64,000 bases of DNA from contig CBDBIB010000001.1 of the NCBI GenBank assembly GCA_965205945.1, positions 448,001 through 512,000 of the forward strand. The letters run 5' to 3'. The position numbers and the translations under genes were made by a program. The notes beneath the pieces were generated by a model that was given only the letters and a program-made list of their open reading frames with translations, had not been told where the DNA came from and made no database searches. Of the stretch, positions 1,651 to 39,485 are shown piece by piece (position 1 is the first letter of the stretch; the number at the start of each line of letters is the position of its first letter). This stretch comes from Bdellovibrionales bacterium (GTDB taxonomy: Bacteria > Bdellovibrionota > Bdellovibrionia > Bdellovibrionales > UBA1609).

Positions 1651-2675
1651 AACCCGAATTCGAACTTTTTAAATCTGCTGTAACATTCTATTCTCATGGG
1701 TTTGAATACGAATTGATAGCTTAAAAGGGCGCAGAAATATGCTGTTAGTGCTGACAAAACATTTATCACAAAGTTTAAACTTTGATGTCAAGAGTGTTCA
1801 ATGTGAAACTCTTCTTTTAAAATTCCAAAAACAGTCTCAACAATATATCTTTTCCTCAGTAACAGTTTGTCAAATAGTGGAACAAACCTATTTTTCATAT
1901 TTGATTTTAAATTCGTAATCAACTAAACACCTTTAGCCATAAGTTTTTTAAAGAACTTCTGGAAGATGTCCCCCTTATCACCAAAAAATTTTCCTAAAAA
2001 AAAACCATGAGCAAGATCTTCTAGAGGTTTTTTATCATGTACATTTCCTGGAGTTATTGTGAAGTTTAAAAGCCCCCCTTTGTGAGAAATAATGATGTGA
2101 ACTTTAAACCCAAAGAACTAAGCCATTGTTAACCTTCCTTTCTTTGCAAGCCTTTTAAAGGTTTCGTGTCGGTTGATTCTTTTGTTATTGCAAACAACTA
2201 AAGGGCTTAAATCAACTATGGAAATTTTAGTGCAAAGATTTGATTGCATCAACGAGTGTAGAAAAATAAAAAGATGTGGAGCCAAAGATTTTTTAAGTTC
2301 TACAAACCTGTTGTAAGATAAGCGTTTTGGGAAATCTGCTTTTAAAAAGCTTTAAGTATAGCCCTGTGTAGAAAGCCTTAAAATTCCTGAACCCAGAAAA
2401 TTAAAATAATAGACATATGGTGATCACTTCTGATTCTGATAACGCCGGGGGAAAACCTTCCTTCTTCTTACTGGATATAAGCTTGCGTTGCTCTTTATGA
2501 AATCCTAAAATAAAATCGCCAACAAGAGTAAAAACTTCTATAAGTTGATTCTCTTTAATCATTCCCAGCTTCTTTTTTGCAGATTAGTTAAAAACAAAAA
2601 ATAAATCTTACAAAAGACTGGGGTGATCTTTTATTTATTCAGGGCTTAGATCCTGAATAAGTCCAAATTCGGGTT
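1651..2675 (-). mobile_element. IS982-family element with a pseudogenised transposase
   Basis: Terminal IRs aacccgaattcgaactt (1651-1667) and aagtccaaattcgggtt (2659-2675), 15/17 match; minus strand from ATG 2562 reads MIKENQLIEVFTLVGDF...LSESEVITICLLF*; later fragments FFGFKVH and FGDKG; several stops and frameshifts. Confidence 0.9.
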
Positions 2676-15572: not shown

Positions 15573-16055
15573 ATGACTAAAGCTAAACTTTTAACCCTTT
15601 CATTAATAACAATTTCATTTACTCTACTCTTATTAAGTTTAGTTCTTATTTTAAACCCGAAAACTCGTCTTTCTTTAAACAACCTTATTCAAAACAAGAA
15701 TCGAAAAATCATTGCCACATTACAAACAAATCTATCCATACCTAATAAGAATTTTAAAATTCTTAAGATAAAGCACAATTCAGACTTATGGATTGAAATT
15801 TATGATCTTTCTTCATCTGAAAATCGGGTTGCCGAATTTCAGCTCTTAAAAAAAACTAACGCCCAAATGCTTGTAAAGAAAAAAGCTTCTAGTCTATTCG
15901 CTTCAGATTTAGATGGTGATAAAATTTTAGAAATTCTAGCACCTTCTTTTAATTCCAAGCTCCACCCTAAAATACACGCCTTTCGCTACAACCCTGTAAC
16001 AAACAGCTTTTCTAAAATTTCGGACCAAGATCTTTTACAAAATCTTAATCTCTAA
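15573..16055 (+). CDS. Hypothetical membrane-anchored protein with a DxDGD loop
   Basis: N-terminal TM helix; SDLDGDKILEILAP. Confidence 0.65.
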   Translation: MTKAKLLTLSLITISFTLLLLSLVLILNPKTRLSLNNLIQNKNRKIIATLQTNLSIPNKNFKILKIKHNSDLWIEIYDLSSSENRVAEFQLLKKTNAQMLVKKKASSLFASDLDGDKILEILAPSFNSKLHPKIHAFRYNPVTNSFSKISDQDLLQNLNL

Positions 16056-16106: not shown

Positions 16107-16793
16107 ATGTATCAGTTTATGATTCATTTTATAGCAATAATACTATTTAACCTAAGTTTATTATGTGCCTGTAACAATCAGCAAACACAGCGCCTTTCTA
16201 AACATAACTTTTATCAAGAAAAAAATGATATTGCAGCTTTTGCGCTTACACAAAATGAAACTAAAATTTTAAAACCCACTATTTTTTTAGATGAAGATCT
16301 TTTTTCCGTTCTTGAATTTAAAAGCACGATCACTTTAACCGACACTAAGGAAAATAAAATCACCTTATCTCTTATTGGAAAAAATGTTTCTAACTCTACT
16401 ATTAATGTATCTATTAAAGAGGTTGCCGGCCTAACTCCACAATCTAAAATAATTAAACCTGCGTCTTTTAGACTGCCTATTACAAATGAAAAAGGTTTTC
16501 TTCTTACTTTTGATGTGATTATTGAGTTTAATAGCTCTAAGGAAAGCTTTTTATCCGTATATACTAAACAAGTTCCCCCCATAGAAAATGACTCTGAACT
16601 TGACCCTAAAACACCTCCTCAAGTGTTTACTTCATTTTATTCATCTAGTGATGATGAAATAGCTCTTTATGAGTTTAAAAAACCTGAAAAAGGAGTCCCT
16701 TTAACTTATTTTTTACACCACCAAAATACAGCTCAAAGCTTAAATATTCTTAGAATTTCAACAAGGCTAACTCTAAAAAAAATACTACAATGA
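16107..16793 (+). CDS. Hypothetical lipoprotein
   Basis: Hydrophobic N-terminus ending LLCAC; 228-aa ORF. Confidence 0.55.
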   Translation: MYQFMIHFIAIILFNLSLLCACNNQQTQRLSKHNFYQEKNDIAAFALTQNETKILKPTIFLDEDLFSVLEFKSTITLTDTKENKITLSLIGKNVSNSTINVSIKEVAGLTPQSKIIKPASFRLPITNEKGFLLTFDVIIEFNSSKESFLSVYTKQVPPIENDSELDPKTPPQVFTSFYSSSDDEIALYEFKKPEKGVPLTYFLHHQNTAQSLNILRISTRLTLKKILQ

Positions 16794-17029: not shown

Positions 17030-19036
17030 ATGTCTTTTAAACGTCACAAAGAAATTATTAAAACCATTAAACACCATGATGAGTTATATTATAAAGATTC
17101 AGCCCCTGAAATCACAGATTATGAATATGATAAGCTCTTTACTGAACTTAAAAATATTGAAGACTTAAACCCTTCTTTAATAACAGATGATTCCCCCACT
17201 CAAAGAGTAAGTGATGCTCCAGTTGATTTTTTTTTAAAGAAAAAACATCAACTTCCCATGTTGTCTTTACAAAACACATACAATTTAAAAGACATTCAAG
17301 ATTTTGATTTACGCTGCAAAAAAGTTTTAGCTTCTAAAGATGAAATTGAATATTGTTGTGAGCCTAAATTTGACGGACTTGCTGTTGAATTAATTTATAA
17401 GAATGGCTCTTTAACCTCAGCCCTTACAAGAGGCGATGGAAAAATTGGTGAAGATGTTTTATCAAATGTTAAAACTATTAAATCCATCCCTTTAAAACTA
17501 AATACAAAAACTCCTCCTAAAATTTTTGAAGTCAGAGGTGAGGTAATGATTTTAAAAAATGATTTTAAAACTTTAAATATCCAACAAAAAGATAGTGGCC
17601 TGCCAGTTTTTGCAAACCCTAGAAACGCTGCTGCCGGCTCCATTAGACAACTTGATTCAAAAATAGCAGCAAATCGCCCATTAAAATTTTATGGACACTC
17701 TCCAGGCAAAGTATCTAAAAAAAATTTTAAAACACAATTTGAATTTCTTAAGCTCTTAAAAAATTATAAGCTCCCCACAGCTTTAGACTATAATGTATAT
17801 AAAATCTGTAAAACTCTAAGCAAGGTCACTCTCCATTATAAAAAAATGGAAAAAAACAAAAAAAATCTCCCTTTTAATATAGATGGAATGGTTATAAAGG
17901 TGAATAACCTAAGTCTTCAGGATGAACTTGGTTTTATTGCAAGAAGTCCTCGCTGGGCTACGGCTGCTAAATTTAAGCCTGATCAAAAACTTACAGTCAT
18001 CTTAGATATTGAGTATCAAATTGGTCGAACTGGTATAATCACTCCCGTAGCTATTCTTGATCCTATATCTGTAGGAGGTGTTACAATTTCTAATGCTACA
18101 CTTCATAATTTTTCAGAACTTAAAAGAAAAGATATTCGAATTGGAGACACTGTGCTCATTCATAGAGCTGGAGAGGTCATCCCTGAAATTATTCATGTTA
18201 AACTTTCTAAGCGCTTAAAAACCTTTAAAAAAATTATTCCCCCTATAAATTGCCCGAGTTGTTTTAAAAAATTACAGCATGAAAATAATAAGATTGCCCT
18301 GCGGTGCACAAATATAAAATGCCCAGGTTTAAATCTAAAACGACTTAAACATTTTGTTTCAAGGTCAGCCTTAAATATAGATACGCTTGGAGATCGGATT
18401 ATTGAAAGATTTTTTAAACTTAATATGATTTTAAACTTTTCAGACATTTATTCTTTAAATAAACACAGTGTCCTTAAGCTTCCTCGTTTTGGAGAAAAAT
18501 CTATAGCAAATCTTTTTTCTTCAATTGAAAAAAGTAAATCAGAATCTCTTGAAAAGTTTATTTTTGCCTTTGGAATTAAACATGTTGGTAAAAAAACCGC
18601 GGAAATTTTAGCTGCTCACTTTCAAAACCTTGAAAAATTCTTAACCGCTACACCCAAAGAGCTTAAAGCTCTTCATAATATTGGTGAAAAAGTCGCCCTA
18701 AGTGTGGCCTCTGAGCTTAGTGATCCAAATTTTGTTAAAGAAATTAAAACACTATTAAAACTTGGTATTAATCCTCTTTCTGAATTCTCCAATCTTAAAC
18801 AAAAAAAAACTCCCCTTAGTGGTAAAAAAATTGTTATTACTGGAACTTTTAAAATACCACGTCCAGAGATTATTAAATTTCTTAAATCTTATGGAATAAA
18901 CGTAAGCAGCTCTGTAAGTAAAAGCACAGATTATCTCTTAGTTGGAGCAGCGGCTGGCTCAAAAGTAAAAAAAGCTCAACAGCTTGGTATAAAAATACTT
19001 TCCTGGATTGATTTAAATAAATTAATTAATTTTTAG
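17030..19036 (+). CDS. ligA: NAD-dependent DNA ligase
   Basis: EPKFDG; EVRGEV; NPRNAAAGS; Cys4 zinc finger; BRCT. Confidence 0.97.
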   Translation: MSFKRHKEIIKTIKHHDELYYKDSAPEITDYEYDKLFTELKNIEDLNPSLITDDSPTQRVSDAPVDFFLKKKHQLPMLSLQNTYNLKDIQDFDLRCKKVLASKDEIEYCCEPKFDGLAVELIYKNGSLTSALTRGDGKIGEDVLSNVKTIKSIPLKLNTKTPPKIFEVRGEVMILKNDFKTLNIQQKDSGLPVFANPRNAAAGSIRQLDSKIAANRPLKFYGHSPGKVSKKNFKTQFEFLKLLKNYKLPTALDYNVYKICKTLSKVTLHYKKMEKNKKNLPFNIDGMVIKVNNLSLQDELGFIARSPRWATAAKFKPDQKLTVILDIEYQIGRTGIITPVAILDPISVGGVTISNATLHNFSELKRKDIRIGDTVLIHRAGEVIPEIIHVKLSKRLKTFKKIIPPINCPSCFKKLQHENNKIALRCTNIKCPGLNLKRLKHFVSRSALNIDTLGDRIIERFFKLNMILNFSDIYSLNKHSVLKLPRFGEKSIANLFSSIEKSKSESLEKFIFAFGIKHVGKKTAEILAAHFQNLEKFLTATPKELKALHNIGEKVALSVASELSDPNFVKEIKTLLKLGINPLSEFSNLKQKKTPLSGKKIVITGTFKIPRPEIIKFLKSYGINVSSSVSKSTDYLLVGAAAGSKVKKAQQLGIKILSWIDLNKLINF

Positions 19037-19043
19037 ACTAAAT

Positions 19044-19241
19044 TTAAATATGATCTACAACAATATCTCTAGCCATCACTGTTTTTCTTCCATCAACTTT
19101 AGCCGATTCAAGTCCACGCTGACATAGTCTTTCAACAGCCTTACTTAAAGCCTCCACTGTCTCACTTGAAGTGTTACAGCCACCTTGTTCTTTAATAAAT
19201 TTTTTAACTTTGCTGGTTACCACCAATATCTCTGCAGCCAT
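19044..19241 (-). CDS. Bacterial histone-fold protein (Bd0055/HBb-like)
   Basis: 65 aa; LVVTSKVKKFIKE...ESAKVDGRKTVMARDI carries the histone RKTV..RD motif; strong SD GAGGAGG. Confidence 0.92.
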   Translation of the reverse strand: MAAEILVVTSKVKKFIKEQGGCNTSSETVEALSKAVERLCQRGLESAKVDGRKTVMARDIVVDHI

Positions 19242-19351
19242 ATGGCCCTCCTCATTTACTTTATAAGAATAACTAGAAAGTGTTAAAGTGAAAATAAAAC
19301 CATTCGCGTCGCGTTATTTTATATTTTCTGACTCTTTATCAAGCTTTTTTA

Positions 19352-20794
19352 TTAATTTTTGCCTGAATAATAATCTAACTCTTCTTTATTTTTCCATTCT
19401 TTTAAACTCGCAACTCTATCCTTGCCTAAAGGGCTTATCTTAATATAGGCATATCTGGTTAAAATTTTTCTACACTCAATATCTTTAAAAACAGGCGACC
19501 AACTGCCTGGATTTAAAAATTCAACAGAACCTCTTAGTTCATGTTTTACTATATGTGTGTGTCCAAATACAACTCTACTCGTATTAGTCACAATACTTAT
19601 CCACCTTAACCTTTGCTCACCAGGGTCTCTAAATACATTTTCTTTATTTTTAACAGTACTTGAATAAAATATAAAAAACGGTGCTAAAAGCAAAATAGGT
19701 ATAAGTGCCCAATAAATCTGAATGTCAACTAACTGATCCACCATTAAAAAAAATTGAAAAATAAATAAAATTCCAATTAAAAATATAACAGCTTTATCTA
19801 TCCATAAAACCTGCATAATTTTCCATGGCGAACTCACCGCTGAAGGAACTGCAAGAGCAGCAAGTTCTCTAACCATTCGAGGCGTTGCTCTAGATTTTTC
19901 CGCAATCTGCTCAACCCTCTCCTCATAAAAAAATGGATCCACAATAGGCTCTCTAAGTCTATAAAGAACTGACCTGTAACTAATCACCACTGAACTATAA
20001 AACCATGTCCAAATAATTAAAGGTTGTTTTCTAATAAGAAACTTAATAAAAAAATGCAGGTATTGCTTTAAAGTTAATCTGTAGTTTTCTTCGCTATAGG
20101 GATTAACAAAGCCCATAACATTCACCATATATCTAGTTACCATATTTCCAAAAGGAATTCTTATTCTAAAATCATTGCCCACCTTAATCATTGGAAACAC
20201 TGGCGTTTGACAAACACAGTAGGGATCATACTGATTGCCATGTTCTATATGTGTGTCCTTATGACTTATGTAAAACCATTCACAAAATCGAATAAGGTCC
20301 TTACCACCTTGAATATTTGTGATTGCTTTTCTAACTCGCCTTTGAACGTTAGAGTAGTGAAGCTCTAAATCATGGTTTCCAATAATAAAAACAAGCCTAT
20401 TTCCGCCTTCAACAAATCTTGTTAAAGCCTTAACAAAAATAGGATGTGTTTTTAAGATCCTATCAATTTTAAAAACTGATTTTTCTTTCTGTGAAAACAT
20501 CGTCCTATTTCTCTCAAAACTACTTATTTTAAATGATGGCCTTTCAGGCACAGCTGTAACACAATCAAAATCAAAAATGTCACCATTTAATACAAGTTCA
20601 ACTGGGGTTTTTGTAGTTTTAACCTGTTGCTCTAACCAATCAGAAAAAATTTCATCAAAAAAAAACTCTTTTGTTTTATACTTCTTCCATAAAGGTGCCC
20701 TAGGATCTACTTGATGACCTTCAGTCAAGTGTAGATCACTTATAACAAGGGTTGTATATCCTTTTTCAGGAAAAACTTTGACCTTTTTAGACAT
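19352..20794 (-). CDS. Calcineurin-like metallophosphoesterase with two C-terminal TM helices
   Basis: SDLH, NGDIFD, GNHD, EHG and FGHTH motifs. Confidence 0.85.
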   Translation of the reverse strand: MSKKVKVFPEKGYTTLVISDLHLTEGHQVDPRAPLWKKYKTKEFFFDEIFSDWLEQQVKTTKTPVELVLNGDIFDFDCVTAVPERPSFKISSFERNRTMFSQKEKSVFKIDRILKTHPIFVKALTRFVEGGNRLVFIIGNHDLELHYSNVQRRVRKAITNIQGGKDLIRFCEWFYISHKDTHIEHGNQYDPYCVCQTPVFPMIKVGNDFRIRIPFGNMVTRYMVNVMGFVNPYSEENYRLTLKQYLHFFIKFLIRKQPLIIWTWFYSSVVISYRSVLYRLREPIVDPFFYEERVEQIAEKSRATPRMVRELAALAVPSAVSSPWKIMQVLWIDKAVIFLIGILFIFQFFLMVDQLVDIQIYWALIPILLLAPFFIFYSSTVKNKENVFRDPGEQRLRWISIVTNTSRVVFGHTHIVKHELRGSVEFLNPGSWSPVFKDIECRKILTRYAYIKISPLGKDRVASLKEWKNKEELDYYSGKN

Positions 20795-21890: not shown

Positions 21891-21947
21891 ATCTTTTTAG
21901 ACCTTTTGCTAGGAGCTTCTCTTTTAAAAAAGAATATAATTATCTTT

Positions 21948-22580
21948 ATGTTTAGATATTTTTTTTTAATAATTTTTATAGTATTTCCCTCTTGTAATAA
22001 CAATGAATCCTTATCTAATGTCGAATTTAAAATAAATCCTGCATCACCTACTGTTTTCACCGCAGATACCATTGAAACTAAAAAAACAATAATTGATGGT
22101 GTAAGAACTATAGAAACTTTCGATATACCCGGCCCATGGATGAGTATTGGATTTGATATTATAAACAAAAGCAAAATTGCAGTAACAATAATAGCTGTCA
22201 CTTTCTACATCAGCCTTCCTAACGAAGAAATAAAAACACAATCCATCACTAATTATAACGCCAATGGTGAAGCCCTTAGCTTCTTTGCTATCCTTCGCCC
22301 TGAAAATGACGTTAACTGTGACGGAATAGTAAGTAACAGCGAAGCAAAATTAATAAACCCTGTGCTTGATAAAGATTGTTTTATGGATGAAACAAACCCT
22401 TCTTTTAATGGTCTTCGATTTAAATTATATGATTTATTAAGTAATGCTGAGGATAAAAGTGCCTATTTAGGAGCAAGTTACCCTGTCAAAGCTCACTTTG
22501 AGGGTTGGACTGGAACATTTGAAAAACCTGAAAAGAATTTTTTTAAAGAAATTTTCTTTATAGGCAAAAGCTCTTTCTAA
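21948..22580 (+). CDS. Hypothetical lipoprotein
   Basis: MFRYFFLIIFIVFPSC lipobox-like start at ATG 21948; DVNCDGIVSNSE loop. Confidence 0.6.
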   Translation: MFRYFFLIIFIVFPSCNNNESLSNVEFKINPASPTVFTADTIETKKTIIDGVRTIETFDIPGPWMSIGFDIINKSKIAVTIIAVTFYISLPNEEIKTQSITNYNANGEALSFFAILRPENDVNCDGIVSNSEAKLINPVLDKDCFMDETNPSFNGLRFKLYDLLSNAEDKSAYLGASYPVKAHFEGWTGTFEKPEKNFFKEIFFIGKSSF

Positions 22581-22679: not shown

Positions 22680-23598
22680 CCTTAAATTATTTTGTATAAG
22701 ATCTTTACTAGTGAGAATGATTGCTTAAACTTTTTAAAAGAGATCCGTTGGAGTAAAGGCTTTCACTGCCAGGCCTGTGGTTATGATGATTTTTGGAAAA
22801 TCATCATCAGGCCTTCGCCGCTGCCAATCTTATAGATTCAAAAACTGAGTAAAAAAAAACTATTTTTCAATCAAGCAGGCTTCCCTTAAAAACTTGGTTC
22901 TATGCAATTTGGTGGTTCACTTCACAAAAAACTAGCATCAGTGCTTTGAATCTTTAAAAGAATATTGGTCTAGGTAGTTATCGTAGTGCATGGCTACTTC
23001 TTCATAAAATTCGAACTGCTATGGTTCGTAAAAATCAAAGCCTTCTGCAAGGAGAGGTTGAAATTGATGAAGCTTTTGTTAAAGGCGCCCGCTCTAGAAA
23101 GCGCGGCAAAGGCGCTAAAGGAAAGGAACTCGTTGTAATTGCTAGGGAATGTTTTAGTAAAAAACGTACTGGTAGAATTTAAATGCAAAGAATTCTAGAT
23201 GCTTTAGCGACAACTTTAGAACTCTTTATTCTGGATAATATTGCTCAAGGATCGACAATACACACAGACGGCTGGCCAAGTTACAACGCCATTTCAAGCT
23301 TAGGATATAAGCACTCACCTCGATCTTCAAATTCAGTAGACCCGGATGAACTTCTTCCAAGAATTAATGTTGTAACTACTCTTCTAAAAAGATGGCTGCT
23401 GAAAACACTTCATGGAAATCTAAACCCTAAACATATGGATAACTATTTTGAAGAGTTTATTTTCAGATTTAACAGAAGAACTTTAAAGTCTTAAGGTCTT
23501 TTATTCCAGCGAGTTCTTAAAAACTCAATTCTTGTTCAGCCAGCTCCATATCAGGAAATTATTGCTAGAAAACAATAGGGCCAGTCAAGTGCATACCC
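22680..23598 (+). mobile_element. IS1595-family element with a pseudogenised transposase
   Basis: IFTSENDCLNFLKEIRWSKGFHCQACG zinc ribbon; GEVEIDEAFV; TIHTDGWPSY; YFEEFIFRFNRR; internal stops (e.g. 23180-23182); probable right end gtcaagtgcataccc; left end not found. Confidence 0.9.
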
Positions 23599-38827: not shown

Positions 38828-39122
38828 GGGCATGTCCTCAATTAGTTTCAAGGTGTTAATCTGCGTTTCTAAGGGGGCACAGATGCTAAAAAGATAAGAG
38901 TTAAAAGATTATCAGTGAAAACAAATCAAGAACTTACCTCCTGGAAGATCAACAACAGTGAGTGTTACAGCTAAAAACAATCGCAACTTTGTTAATGAAG
39001 TTTTGTGGATTTTAAGATCTGGAGCTTCATGGAGATTTCTGCCAAAACAATACGGTCCATAGAAAAATACTTACAATCATTTTTCTAAATGGAAGGAATC
39101 AGGTATTTGGTCGAGTATATTT
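38828..39122 (+). mobile_element. IS5-family remnant (left end plus N-terminal transposase)
   Basis: Begins TA|GGGCATGTCCTCAATT; from ATG 38883 MLKR*ELKDYQ*...NNRNFVNEVLWILRSGASWRFLPKQYGP*KNTYNHFSKWKESGIW. Confidence 0.85.
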
Positions 39123-39485
39123 AACCCGAAATAAGAGCTTTAGGGAATATGCTTTTAAAAAACTTTGAGCATAGCCTATGTAGATGACCTTGAAATTTCT
39201 GAACCCAGAAAATTAGAATAATAGACATATGGTGATCACTTCTTATTCTAATAACGCAGGGGGGAAACCTTTCTTCTTCTTGCTGCATATAAGCTTACGC
39301 TGCTCTTTATAAAGCCCTAAAGCAAAGTCGCCAACAAGAACAAAAACTTCTATAATTTGATTCTCTTTAATCATTCCCAGCTCCTTTTGCAGATTAGTTA
39401 AAAACAAAAAATAAATCTTACAAAAGACTGAAGTGATCTTTTATTTATTCAGGACTTAGGTCCTTAATAAATCCGAATTCGGTTT
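39123..39485 (-). mobile_element. Internally deleted IS982-family copy
   Basis: About 39131-39485 aligns with about 2318-2675 including the IR; begins with aacccgaa, resembling the opposite IR. Confidence 0.85.

What the first reader, a model, noticed from the sequence alone, without database searches (positions are those of the whole stretch)
19044..19241. Bacterial histone retained in an eroding genome
The 65-aa protein closely resembles, from my recall, the B. bacteriovorus histone Bd0055 (LVVTSKVKK..KE, GRKTVMARDI). It has an optimal SD, is convergent with ligA, and is easily missed by annotation. The family is described, but its intact state beside dead IS elements and pseudogenes suggests histone-based chromatin remains essential in this lineage. 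It also anchors the taxonomy.
Basis: partly seen in the sequence, partly recalled or inferred. Interest (0 to 1): 0.7.

Follow-up and report, generated by a model that had tools for sequence, protein, structure and literature searches.

The report
Ortholog of Bdellovibrio histone HBb

Summary
The 65-aa ORF at 19044-19241(-) is real. It matches the solved B. bacteriovorus histone Bd0055/HBb (PDB 8CMP/8FVX) at E 6e-27 over 63 residues. Its model superposes on DNA-bound HBb at 0.8 A rmsd. All 10 published DNA-contact residues, the RD clamp and the RKTV loop are intact.

It is single-copy and sits at the family's usual site, convergent with ligA. It evolves under strong constraint: dN/dS 0.05-0.07, against 0.13-0.20 for ligA. 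The best 80 related loci all carry Bdellovibrionota titles, so the taxonomic anchor holds.

"Eroding genome" is only partly right. The genome is 1.87 Mb at 32.5% GC, and the window holds three transposase relics. But about 87% of the genome still lies in long ORFs, and three HU/IHF genes remain.

Retention is not special to this genome: 35 of 40 relatives carry the canonical gene. The three smallest carry an RD-clamp-less variant at the same site, and two cannot be assessed.

The scan already reported HBb orthologs in three other genomes, and the variant in one. Known kind; low interest.

The parts
19044..19241 (-). CDS of the 65-aa HBb/Bd0055-type histone (stop codon included)
   Evidence: ORF listing. 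phmmer E 6e-27 to PDB 8cmp/8fvx. AF2 model with pLDDT 90.6. Foldseek TM 0.90/0.95, rmsd 0.8 A to 9ezz_A.
19247..19252 (-). Shine-Dalgarno AGGAGG, 5 nt before the ATG
   Evidence: Read directly from the sequence.
19258..19286 (-). Weak sigma-70-like hexamer pair (TTAACA-17-TAAAGT) in the 110-nt spacer upstream of the histone. It is at chance level, so it is only a candidate own promoter.
   Evidence: 2 sites found in the region against 3.3 +/- 1.9 in shuffles.
17030..19036 (+). ligA (NAD-dependent DNA ligase), the convergent neighbour and synteny anchor of the histone locus
   Evidence: Pfam domains. ligA lies beside the histone in 94 of 110 related loci. These loci come from two overlapping collections, so some genomes count twice.
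19352..20794 (-). 480-aa metallophosphoesterase-domain protein directly upstream on the same strand, the second synteny anchor
   Evidence: Pfam Metallophos, E 1e-5. Adjacent in 60 of 110 related loci.

Best explanation
The gene encodes the single-copy positional ortholog of the Bdellovibrio bacteriovorus histone HBb (Bd0055). HBb is a 'bacterial dimer' histone with a truncated alpha3 helix. By homology, two chains form a histone-fold handshake dimer. The dimer binds the DNA phosphate backbone without sequence preference. It does so through the L1-L2 loops (N23, S25, K53, T54, R58 in window numbering) and the start of helix alpha1 (T9, S10, K11, K13, K17). The R52-D59 clamp, helped by D50, holds the L2 loop in place. 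The protein has no histidine at the tetramerisation position (V49 here), so it should not build nucleosome-like wraps. Instead it should bend DNA as separate dimers and may coat DNA at high density, acting as an abundant nucleoid protein alongside HU/IHF. Shown here: sequence, fold, residue conservation, synteny and purifying selection. Inferred from the HD100 protein: dimerisation, DNA binding, abundance and importance for growth.
For: Sequence: E 6.2e-27 / 7.3e-27 to 8cmp_A / 8fvx_A over residues 3-65.

Fold: pLDDT 90.6, helices at 9-20 and 26-49 plus one turn at 57-59. The top five Foldseek matches are all HBb chains, with TM up to 0.90/0.95 and rmsd 0.8-1.2 A.

Residues: Hu et al. 2024 (PMC11317129, passages read) list the DNA contacts N22, R57, S9, T53, T8, S24, K10, K12, K52, K16 and the clamp R51-D58 with D49. 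All are present in the window protein. The 10 contacts and R51/D58 are invariant in 76 of 76 distinct canonical sequences, the window's included.

Copy number: one copy in the 1.87-Mb genome, with no Bd3044-like paralog at E <= 10.

Synteny: the ligA-convergent site is conserved.

Selection: dN/dS is 0.074 against G003 (dS 0.55) and 0.047 against G001 (dS 1.0). For ligA over the same pairs it is 0.201 and 0.134.

Background: Hocher et al. 2023 (PMC10627809, Results read) report that Bd0055 is the most abundant protein of the nucleoid fraction, and that 133 + 150 deletion attempts all reverted.
Against: No expression data: no RNA run was listed for this stretch. The upstream promoter-like site is at chance level. 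Dimerisation and DNA binding of this particular protein were not tested. The selection estimate rests on 65 codons and only 6-7 non-synonymous differences. The upstream metallophosphoesterase gene has a similar dN/dS in one comparison (0.062 against G001). Three HU/IHF genes are present, so the histone need not be the main nucleoid protein. The window protein has V at the A48-equivalent position, the only V among the 76 canonical sequences; the effect is unknown.
Confidence: 0.93

Rival explanations
1. Same protein, different binding mode. It mainly coats straight DNA end-on as a dense nucleohistone filament (about one dimer per 2.5 bp), rather than bending DNA as separate dimers.
For: The Bd0055-DNA co-crystal and AUC data of Hocher et al. 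2023 (Results read). The N-terminal segment and the L1-L2 residues used in that filament are conserved here.
Against: Hu et al. 2024 (passages read) report bending of about 84 degrees over 36 bp from crystals, TPM and MD, and they question the filament's physiological relevance. The window protein's N-terminus is one residue longer (MAAE instead of MAE).
Confidence: 0.3
2. It is a histone-fold protein with a narrow or accessory role, for example a local regulator, while HU/IHF organise the nucleoid in this reduced genome.
For: Three HU/IHF-family genes are retained. There are no expression data.
Against: Every backbone-contact residue is invariant across 76 canonical sequences. Those contacts are with the backbone only, not with bases, according to the passages read. 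The ortholog is the most abundant protein of the nucleoid fraction in HD100. The gene has a strong SD.
Confidence: 0.06
3. It is a chance or decaying ORF.
For: None, beyond its small size and sub-threshold Pfam and NCBIfam scores.
Against: E 6e-27 to a solved protein, dN/dS 0.05-0.07, conserved synteny and a confident fold.
Confidence: 0.01

Closest known systems
HBb / Bd0055 of Bdellovibrio bacteriovorus HD100 (PDB 8CMP, 8FVX, 8FW7, 9EZZ, 9F0E), a 'bacterial dimer' alpha3-truncated histone
   Same: 72-74% identity in the Foldseek alignments and E 6e-27 by phmmer. Same length class. Same T-S-K start of alpha1, the same alpha1 lysines, RKTV loop, RD clamp with the extra Asp, one-turn alpha3 and no tetramerisation His.
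   Different: One extra N-terminal residue (MAAE). GGC instead of GQM before NTS, which is the consensus of the wider family. V instead of A at position 48, and V instead of I at 61. The host genome is about half the size of the other Bdellovibrio-named genomes listed (1.87 against 3.3-3.7 Mb) and lacks the longer Bd3044-type paralog.
Clamp-less HBb variant of the smallest Bdellovibrionales genomes (G006, G021, G022; 42 clusters in the protein collection)
   Same: Same site, abutting the 3' end of ligA. Same fold: TM 0.72/0.80 to 9f0e_A. Homologous: hhalign probability 96%, and the profile hits 8fvx at E 1.7e-9.
   Different: Only 31-36% identical to the window protein. R51->L, D58->H, R57->N/P/S, S9->K and N22->K/R in all three, and T8->V in two of the three. 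The window protein is the canonical form, not this variant.
HLp of Leptospira (PDB 9QT0-9QT2) and archaeal HTkC (9F2C), face-to-face alpha3 histones
   Same: Short histone fold: TM 0.76-0.78 normalised to the query, 34-36% identity.
   Different: By their titles and abstracts (search listing) these are tetrameric DNA wrappers. Bacterial dimers lack the R48/N52 dimer-dimer residues (Schwab et al. 2024, PMC11390915, passages read).
Archaeal nucleosomal histones HMfA/HMfB
   Same: Histone fold, RKTV loop and RD clamp.
   Different: Weak sequence match (E 0.18) and TM of about 0.57. The window protein has shorter alpha2 and alpha3 helices and no His49, so no hypernucleosome is expected.
HU/IHF family (Bac_DNA_binding)
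   Same: A functional analogue: an abundant, non-specific DNA bender. Hu et al. liken HBb to HU/IHF.
   Different: Unrelated fold. Three such genes coexist with the histone in this genome.

Membership tests
HBb/Bd0055 'bacterial dimer' histones | Significant full-length sequence similarity to Bd0055 | tested here: met
   E 6.2e-27 to 8cmp_A over residues 3-65 of 65.
HBb/Bd0055 'bacterial dimer' histones | Histone fold with alpha3 truncated to about one turn and a short alpha2 | tested here: met
   DSSP on the model gives H9-20, H26-49 and a 3-residue helix at 57-59. It superposes on 9ezz_A at rmsd 0.8 A over 61 columns.
HBb/Bd0055 'bacterial dimer' histones | RKTxxxD motif, the RD clamp (R51-D58, augmented by D49) | tested here: met
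   R52, K53, T54, V55, D59 and D50 are present. The feature is as defined.
HBb/Bd0055 'bacterial dimer' histones | T-S-K at the start of alpha1 and the alpha1 lysines (K11, K13, K17 in Schwab numbering) | tested here: met
   T9, S10, K11, K13 and K17 are present and invariant in 76 of 76 canonical sequences.
HBb/Bd0055 'bacterial dimer' histones | No tetramerisation histidine (Bd0055 A48) | tested here: met
   V49 at that column, and no His in any of the 76 sequences.
HBb/Bd0055 'bacterial dimer' histones | Positional orthology (convergent with ligA) | tested here: met
   ligA is adjacent in 94 of 110 related loci, from overlapping collections, and it abuts the gene here.
HBb/Bd0055 'bacterial dimer' histones | Forms a homodimer | not tested
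   Inferred from 72-74% identity to crystallised dimers. The interface residues L32, L39, V12 and I60 are kept, and I35 is V. The one complex job went to the variant.
HBb/Bd0055 'bacterial dimer' histones | Binds DNA and is an abundant nucleoid protein | not testable with these tools
   No RNA run was listed. This needs EMSA/TPM and proteomics.
Pfam CBFD_NFYB_HMF / NCBIfam archaea_histone (curated models) | Score at or above the curated cut-off | tested here: not met
   20.5 against 21.4 bits and 30.9 against 50 bits. The models under-reach for this bacterial subfamily. This explains missed annotation and does not argue against the fold.
Archaeal/eukaryotic nucleosomal histones | Long alpha3 and His49-type four-helix-bundle tetramerisation | tested here: not met
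   One-turn alpha3, V49, and TM of only about 0.57 to HMfA/HMfB.

The most novel reading that the evidence does not exclude
The ligA-adjacent histone locus may be an obligatory chromatin gene of the whole order, one that survives genome reduction but changes form. The window's 1.87-Mb genome would keep the canonical HBb as the 'before' state. The 1.2-1.5-Mb relatives would have replaced it in place with a conserved variant that lacks the Arg-Asp clamp, which is otherwise conserved in histones of all three domains. That variant is still predicted to fold and pair like a histone. If so, comparing the two natural forms would make it directly testable whether the RD clamp is needed for a histone fold to bind DNA.
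Probability: 0.35. Interest if true: 0.45.

Novelty: already known. Interest (0 to 1): 0.15.

Why it matters
It matters little on its own. The family, its structures, its DNA binding, its spread through Bdellovibrionota and its likely importance for growth are all published: Hocher 2023, Hu 2024 and Schwab 2024, read. The practical value is in annotation. The gene scores just under the Pfam and NCBIfam cut-offs, so pipelines will call it hypothetical. It is also a reliable marker of Bdellovibrionales. The comparative point is more useful: canonical in this reduced genome, clamp-less in the still smaller relatives. The scan had already noted that variant in another genome.

Tried and rejected
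Expression: the look-up of sequencing runs listed no RNA holder for window 17030-20794. I did not lay reads, because contigs of DNA runs cannot show expression.

Promoter and terminator scan: the sites found are at chance level, and there is no terminator between the convergent stop codons.

Rfam and tRNA scans of the window found nothing.

Loss of the histone in G007 and G036: both have only a Bd3044-like long hit. In both, ligA runs off a contig end, so absence cannot be judged. I rejected this as evidence of loss.

Single-gene ligA tree, to place the clamp-less genomes relative to the window's genus: 10 of 20 inner branches were unresolved, the rows for the reduced genomes were long, and G000's amino-acid composition deviated. 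I drew no conclusion from it.

'Histone as sole nucleoid protein after loss of HU': rejected. G000 has 3 HU/IHF-family genes, and each of the 5 relatives checked has 2-3.

Literature search for a reduced-genome Bdellovibrionota histone: the terms 'Bdellovibrionota', 'reduced genome', 'histone' returned no listed paper holding all three terms. Supplementary tables of Hocher 2023 and Schwab 2024 were not opened, and they may list this protein or the variant.

One paper reading failed on a too-short search term. I read the sections instead.

Full report
OBSERVATION. The minus strand carries an ATG-started ORF of 65 aa at exactly 19044..19241. AGGAGG lies 5 nt before the ATG (read). The NAD-dependent DNA ligase gene ligA (17030-19036, +) has all its domains. 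It converges on the ORF, with 7 nt between the two stop codons. Upstream on the same strand lies a 480-aa metallophosphoesterase-domain protein (19352-20794), separated by a 110-nt spacer. A sigma-70-like site in that spacer is no better than chance: 2 sites found against 3.3 +/- 1.9 in shuffles.

IDENTITY. phmmer against all PDB chains gives E 6.2e-27 (8cmp_A) and 7.3e-27 (8fvx_A) over residues 3-65. Both are the Bdellovibrio bacteriovorus histone Bd0055/HBb. The next hits are far weaker: HTkC 9f2c at 1.9e-5, HLp 9qt0 at 4.8e-3 and HMfA at 0.18. The curated models fall just short. Pfam CBFD_NFYB_HMF gives 20.5 bits against a 21.4 cut-off. NCBIfam archaea_histone gives 30.9 against 50.

An AlphaFold2 model was built on a 79-row alignment. 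Its mean pLDDT is 90.6, with helices at 9-20 and 26-49 and one turn at 57-59. The five best Foldseek matches in the PDB are all HBb chains. For 9ezz_A the TM-scores are 0.90/0.95 and the rmsd is 0.8 A over 61 columns.

FAMILY FEATURES. I read the Results of Hocher et al. 2023 (PMC10627809). I also read passages of Hu et al. 2024 (PMC11317129) and Schwab et al. 2024 (PMC11390915). These papers define the bacterial singlet or 'bacterial dimer' histones by six features:
- a short alpha2 helix;
- a one-turn alpha3 helix;
- an S9-K10 motif;
- lysines on alpha1;
- the RKTV loop with the R51-D58 clamp, plus D49;
- no tetramerisation histidine (A48 in Bd0055).

Hu et al. list the DNA-backbone contacts as N22, R57, S9, T53, T8, S24, K10, K12, K52 and K16. 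Window numbering is Bd0055 numbering plus one. All ten contacts, R52/D59/D50, and the interface residues L32, L39, V12 and I60 are present, and I35 is V. The ten contacts and the clamp are invariant in 76 of 76 distinct canonical sequences, the window's included. The A48 position is V here, the only V among the 76. No sequence has His there. The protein should therefore stay a dimer and should not build hypernucleosomes. One search shows that changes at A48, S45 and I61 switch the binding mode.

COPY NUMBER, SYNTENY, TAXONOMY. The window's genome (G000) is 1.87 Mb in 5 contigs, 97% complete, with 32.5% GC. It has one copy of the gene and no second histone-fold hit at E <= 10, so the longer Bd3044-type paralog is absent. 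A Pfam PF00808 search of the genome finds nothing else credible.

Among 110 related loci, ligA lies next to the histone in 94 and the metallophosphoesterase gene in 60. Thirty of these loci come from relatives and 80 from genome contigs. Both collections hold species representatives, so some genomes count twice. Flank lengths also vary.

The best 80 are 72-84% identical. All 80 carry titles within Bdellovibrionota: Bdellovibrio sp., Bdellovibrionales, Bdellovibrionaceae, Pseudobdellovibrionaceae, Bdellovibrionia, Bdellovibrionota, and two 'Oligoflexia bacterium'. The taxonomic anchor holds. Earlier notes of this scan on the same genome also describe Bdellovibrio-type features.

SELECTION. I computed pairwise Nei-Gojobori estimates against genus-level relatives.

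| Gene | Partner | dN | dS | dN/dS |
|---|---|---|---|---|
| histone | G003 | 0.041 | 0.55 | 0.074 |
| histone | G001 | 0.048 | 1.01 | 0.047 |
| ligA (partial) | G003 | 0.104 | 0.52 | 0.201 |
| ligA (partial) | G001 | 0.219 | 1.64 | 0.134 |
| metallophosphoesterase | G001 | 0.118 | 1.89 | 0.062 |

More distant pairs are saturated at dS of 2 or more, or gave no estimate. The histone has the lowest dN of the three genes. The estimate rests on 65 codons and only 6-7 non-synonymous differences.

IS THE GENOME 'ERODING', AND IS RETENTION TELLING? The window holds three transposase relics:
- IS982-type DDE pieces at 1788-2285(-);
- an IS1595 zinc-ribbon ORF at 22692-22835 with a DDE piece at 23183-23494;
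- an IS5-type DUF4096 piece at 38958-39062.

Genome-wide there are 7 IS1595 DDE matches. Four cover only part of the profile and three carry in-frame stops. None lies in an open frame longer than 178 aa. Yet ORFs of 80 aa or more cover 88% of the window and 87% of the genome. There are 99 ORF-free gaps of 600 bp or more, about 95 kb in all. The genome is small and AT-rich with dead IS copies, but it is not heavily pseudogenised. Three HU/IHF-family genes remain.

Retention of the histone is the rule in the order. All 41 genomes searched, G000 included, have a match at E <= 0.001. Of the 40 relatives, 35 have a canonical copy (best E <= 1.3e-19, at least 57% identity), across genome sizes of 1.6-3.8 Mb. 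The gene's presence here therefore says nothing specific about this lineage. It agrees with the published view that the gene matters for fitness: no deletion was obtained in 133 + 150 attempts.

THE FIVE EXCEPTIONS. G007 and G036 show only a Bd3044-like long hit. In both, ligA runs off a contig end, so the histone site is simply not assembled.

G006, G021 and G022 are the smallest genomes of the family, at 1.5, 1.5 and 1.2 Mb. G021 is a single contig. They have no canonical copy. At the same site, abutting the 3' end of ligA, they carry a 62-74-aa protein only 31-36% identical to the window's. In all three, R51 is L, D58 is H, R57 is N/P/S, S9 is K and N22 is K/R. T8 is V in two of the three. 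K10, K12, K16, S24, K52 and T53 are kept.

The variant forms a tight family:
- 42 clusters of 61-97% identity on contigs up to 2.07 Mb, none with a precomputed Pfam domain;
- 20 invariant columns;
- 32 of 42 members give a CBFD_NFYB_HMF match at E <= 1, the best at E 4e-5;
- homology to HBb: hhalign probability 96%, and the profile hits 8fvx at E 1.7e-9;
- the same fold: pLDDT 88.9 and TM 0.72/0.80 to 9f0e_A.

A two-copy complex prediction of the variant scored 0.66, against a best control of 0.00. That mark was reached by 20 of 30 proteins solved as pairs of one chain and by 1 of 23 solved as single chains. The runs agree in at least 91% of contacts, and the partner's pLDDT is at least 79. 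HBb dimers are solved, so this pass may reflect likeness rather than independent evidence.

These genomes keep 2-3 HU/IHF genes. I found the variant before looking it up. The scan had already reported it in another genome (e1-2217848). It lies outside the window and is not part of the finding as given.

MECHANISM. Shown here: sequence, fold, residue conservation, position and constraint. Inferred from HBb: a handshake homodimer that binds the DNA backbone non-specifically through L1-L2 and the start of alpha1. It would bend DNA by about 84 degrees per dimer (Hu 2024) and perhaps coat straight DNA at high density (Hocher 2023), serving as an abundant nucleoid protein beside HU/IHF. I cannot separate bending from coating. 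Expression is unshown, since no RNA run was listed.

VERDICT. The 'eroding genome / essential chromatin' gloss is only partly supported. The gene is an ordinary ortholog of a characterised family. This scan has already reported such orthologs in three other genomes.

Noticed in passing
L111:3004-3207(+), L112:3072-3260(+), L113:2987-3211(-) (relatives G006, G021, G022): The three smallest same-family genomes (1.2-1.5 Mb) lack canonical HBb. At the same ligA-abutting site they carry a conserved 62-74-aa histone-fold variant in which the RD clamp is replaced (R51->L, D58->H) and R57, S9 and N22 are changed. The variant forms 42 clusters in the protein collection and is predicted to keep the fold and to pair as a dimer. 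The scan already noted this variant elsewhere (e1-2217848).
   Followed up: yes
window 1788-2285(-), 22692-23494(+), 38958-39062(+) and 39243-39407(-): Fragmented transposase relics of three IS families: IS982-type DDE_Tnp_1_3, IS1595, and IS5-type DUF4096. The ORF at 39243-39407 resembles the one at 2401-2562, but neither has a Pfam hit. Genome-wide there are 7 IS1595 DDE matches, 4 partial and 3 with in-frame stops.
   Followed up: partly
G003:C5:141979-142173 and 144366-144560 (same-genus relative): The sister species G003 carries two equally scoring histone copies (both 91% identical to the window's) about 2.4 kb apart on one contig. This looks like a local duplication of the histone gene, and the metallophosphoesterase gene is not adjacent there.
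   Followed up: no
G007:C1 end and G036:C6 end (relatives): In both assemblies that seem to lack canonical HBb, ligA is cut by a contig end. The histone locus therefore coincides with an assembly break in two independent genomes. The cause is unknown; a repeat or a coverage problem at this site is possible.
   Followed up: partly
window 19352-20794(-): A 480-aa protein with a split calcineurin-like phosphoesterase signature (N-terminal residues 14-187 and 406-435) and a hydrophobic middle. It is conserved next to the histone in 60 of 110 related loci. Its function and any link to the histone are unknown.
   Followed up: no
window 15573-16055(+), 16107-16793(+), 21906-22580(+): Three ORFs of 160-228 aa with signal-peptide-like N-termini and no Pfam match lie on either side of the ligA-histone locus.
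   Followed up: no
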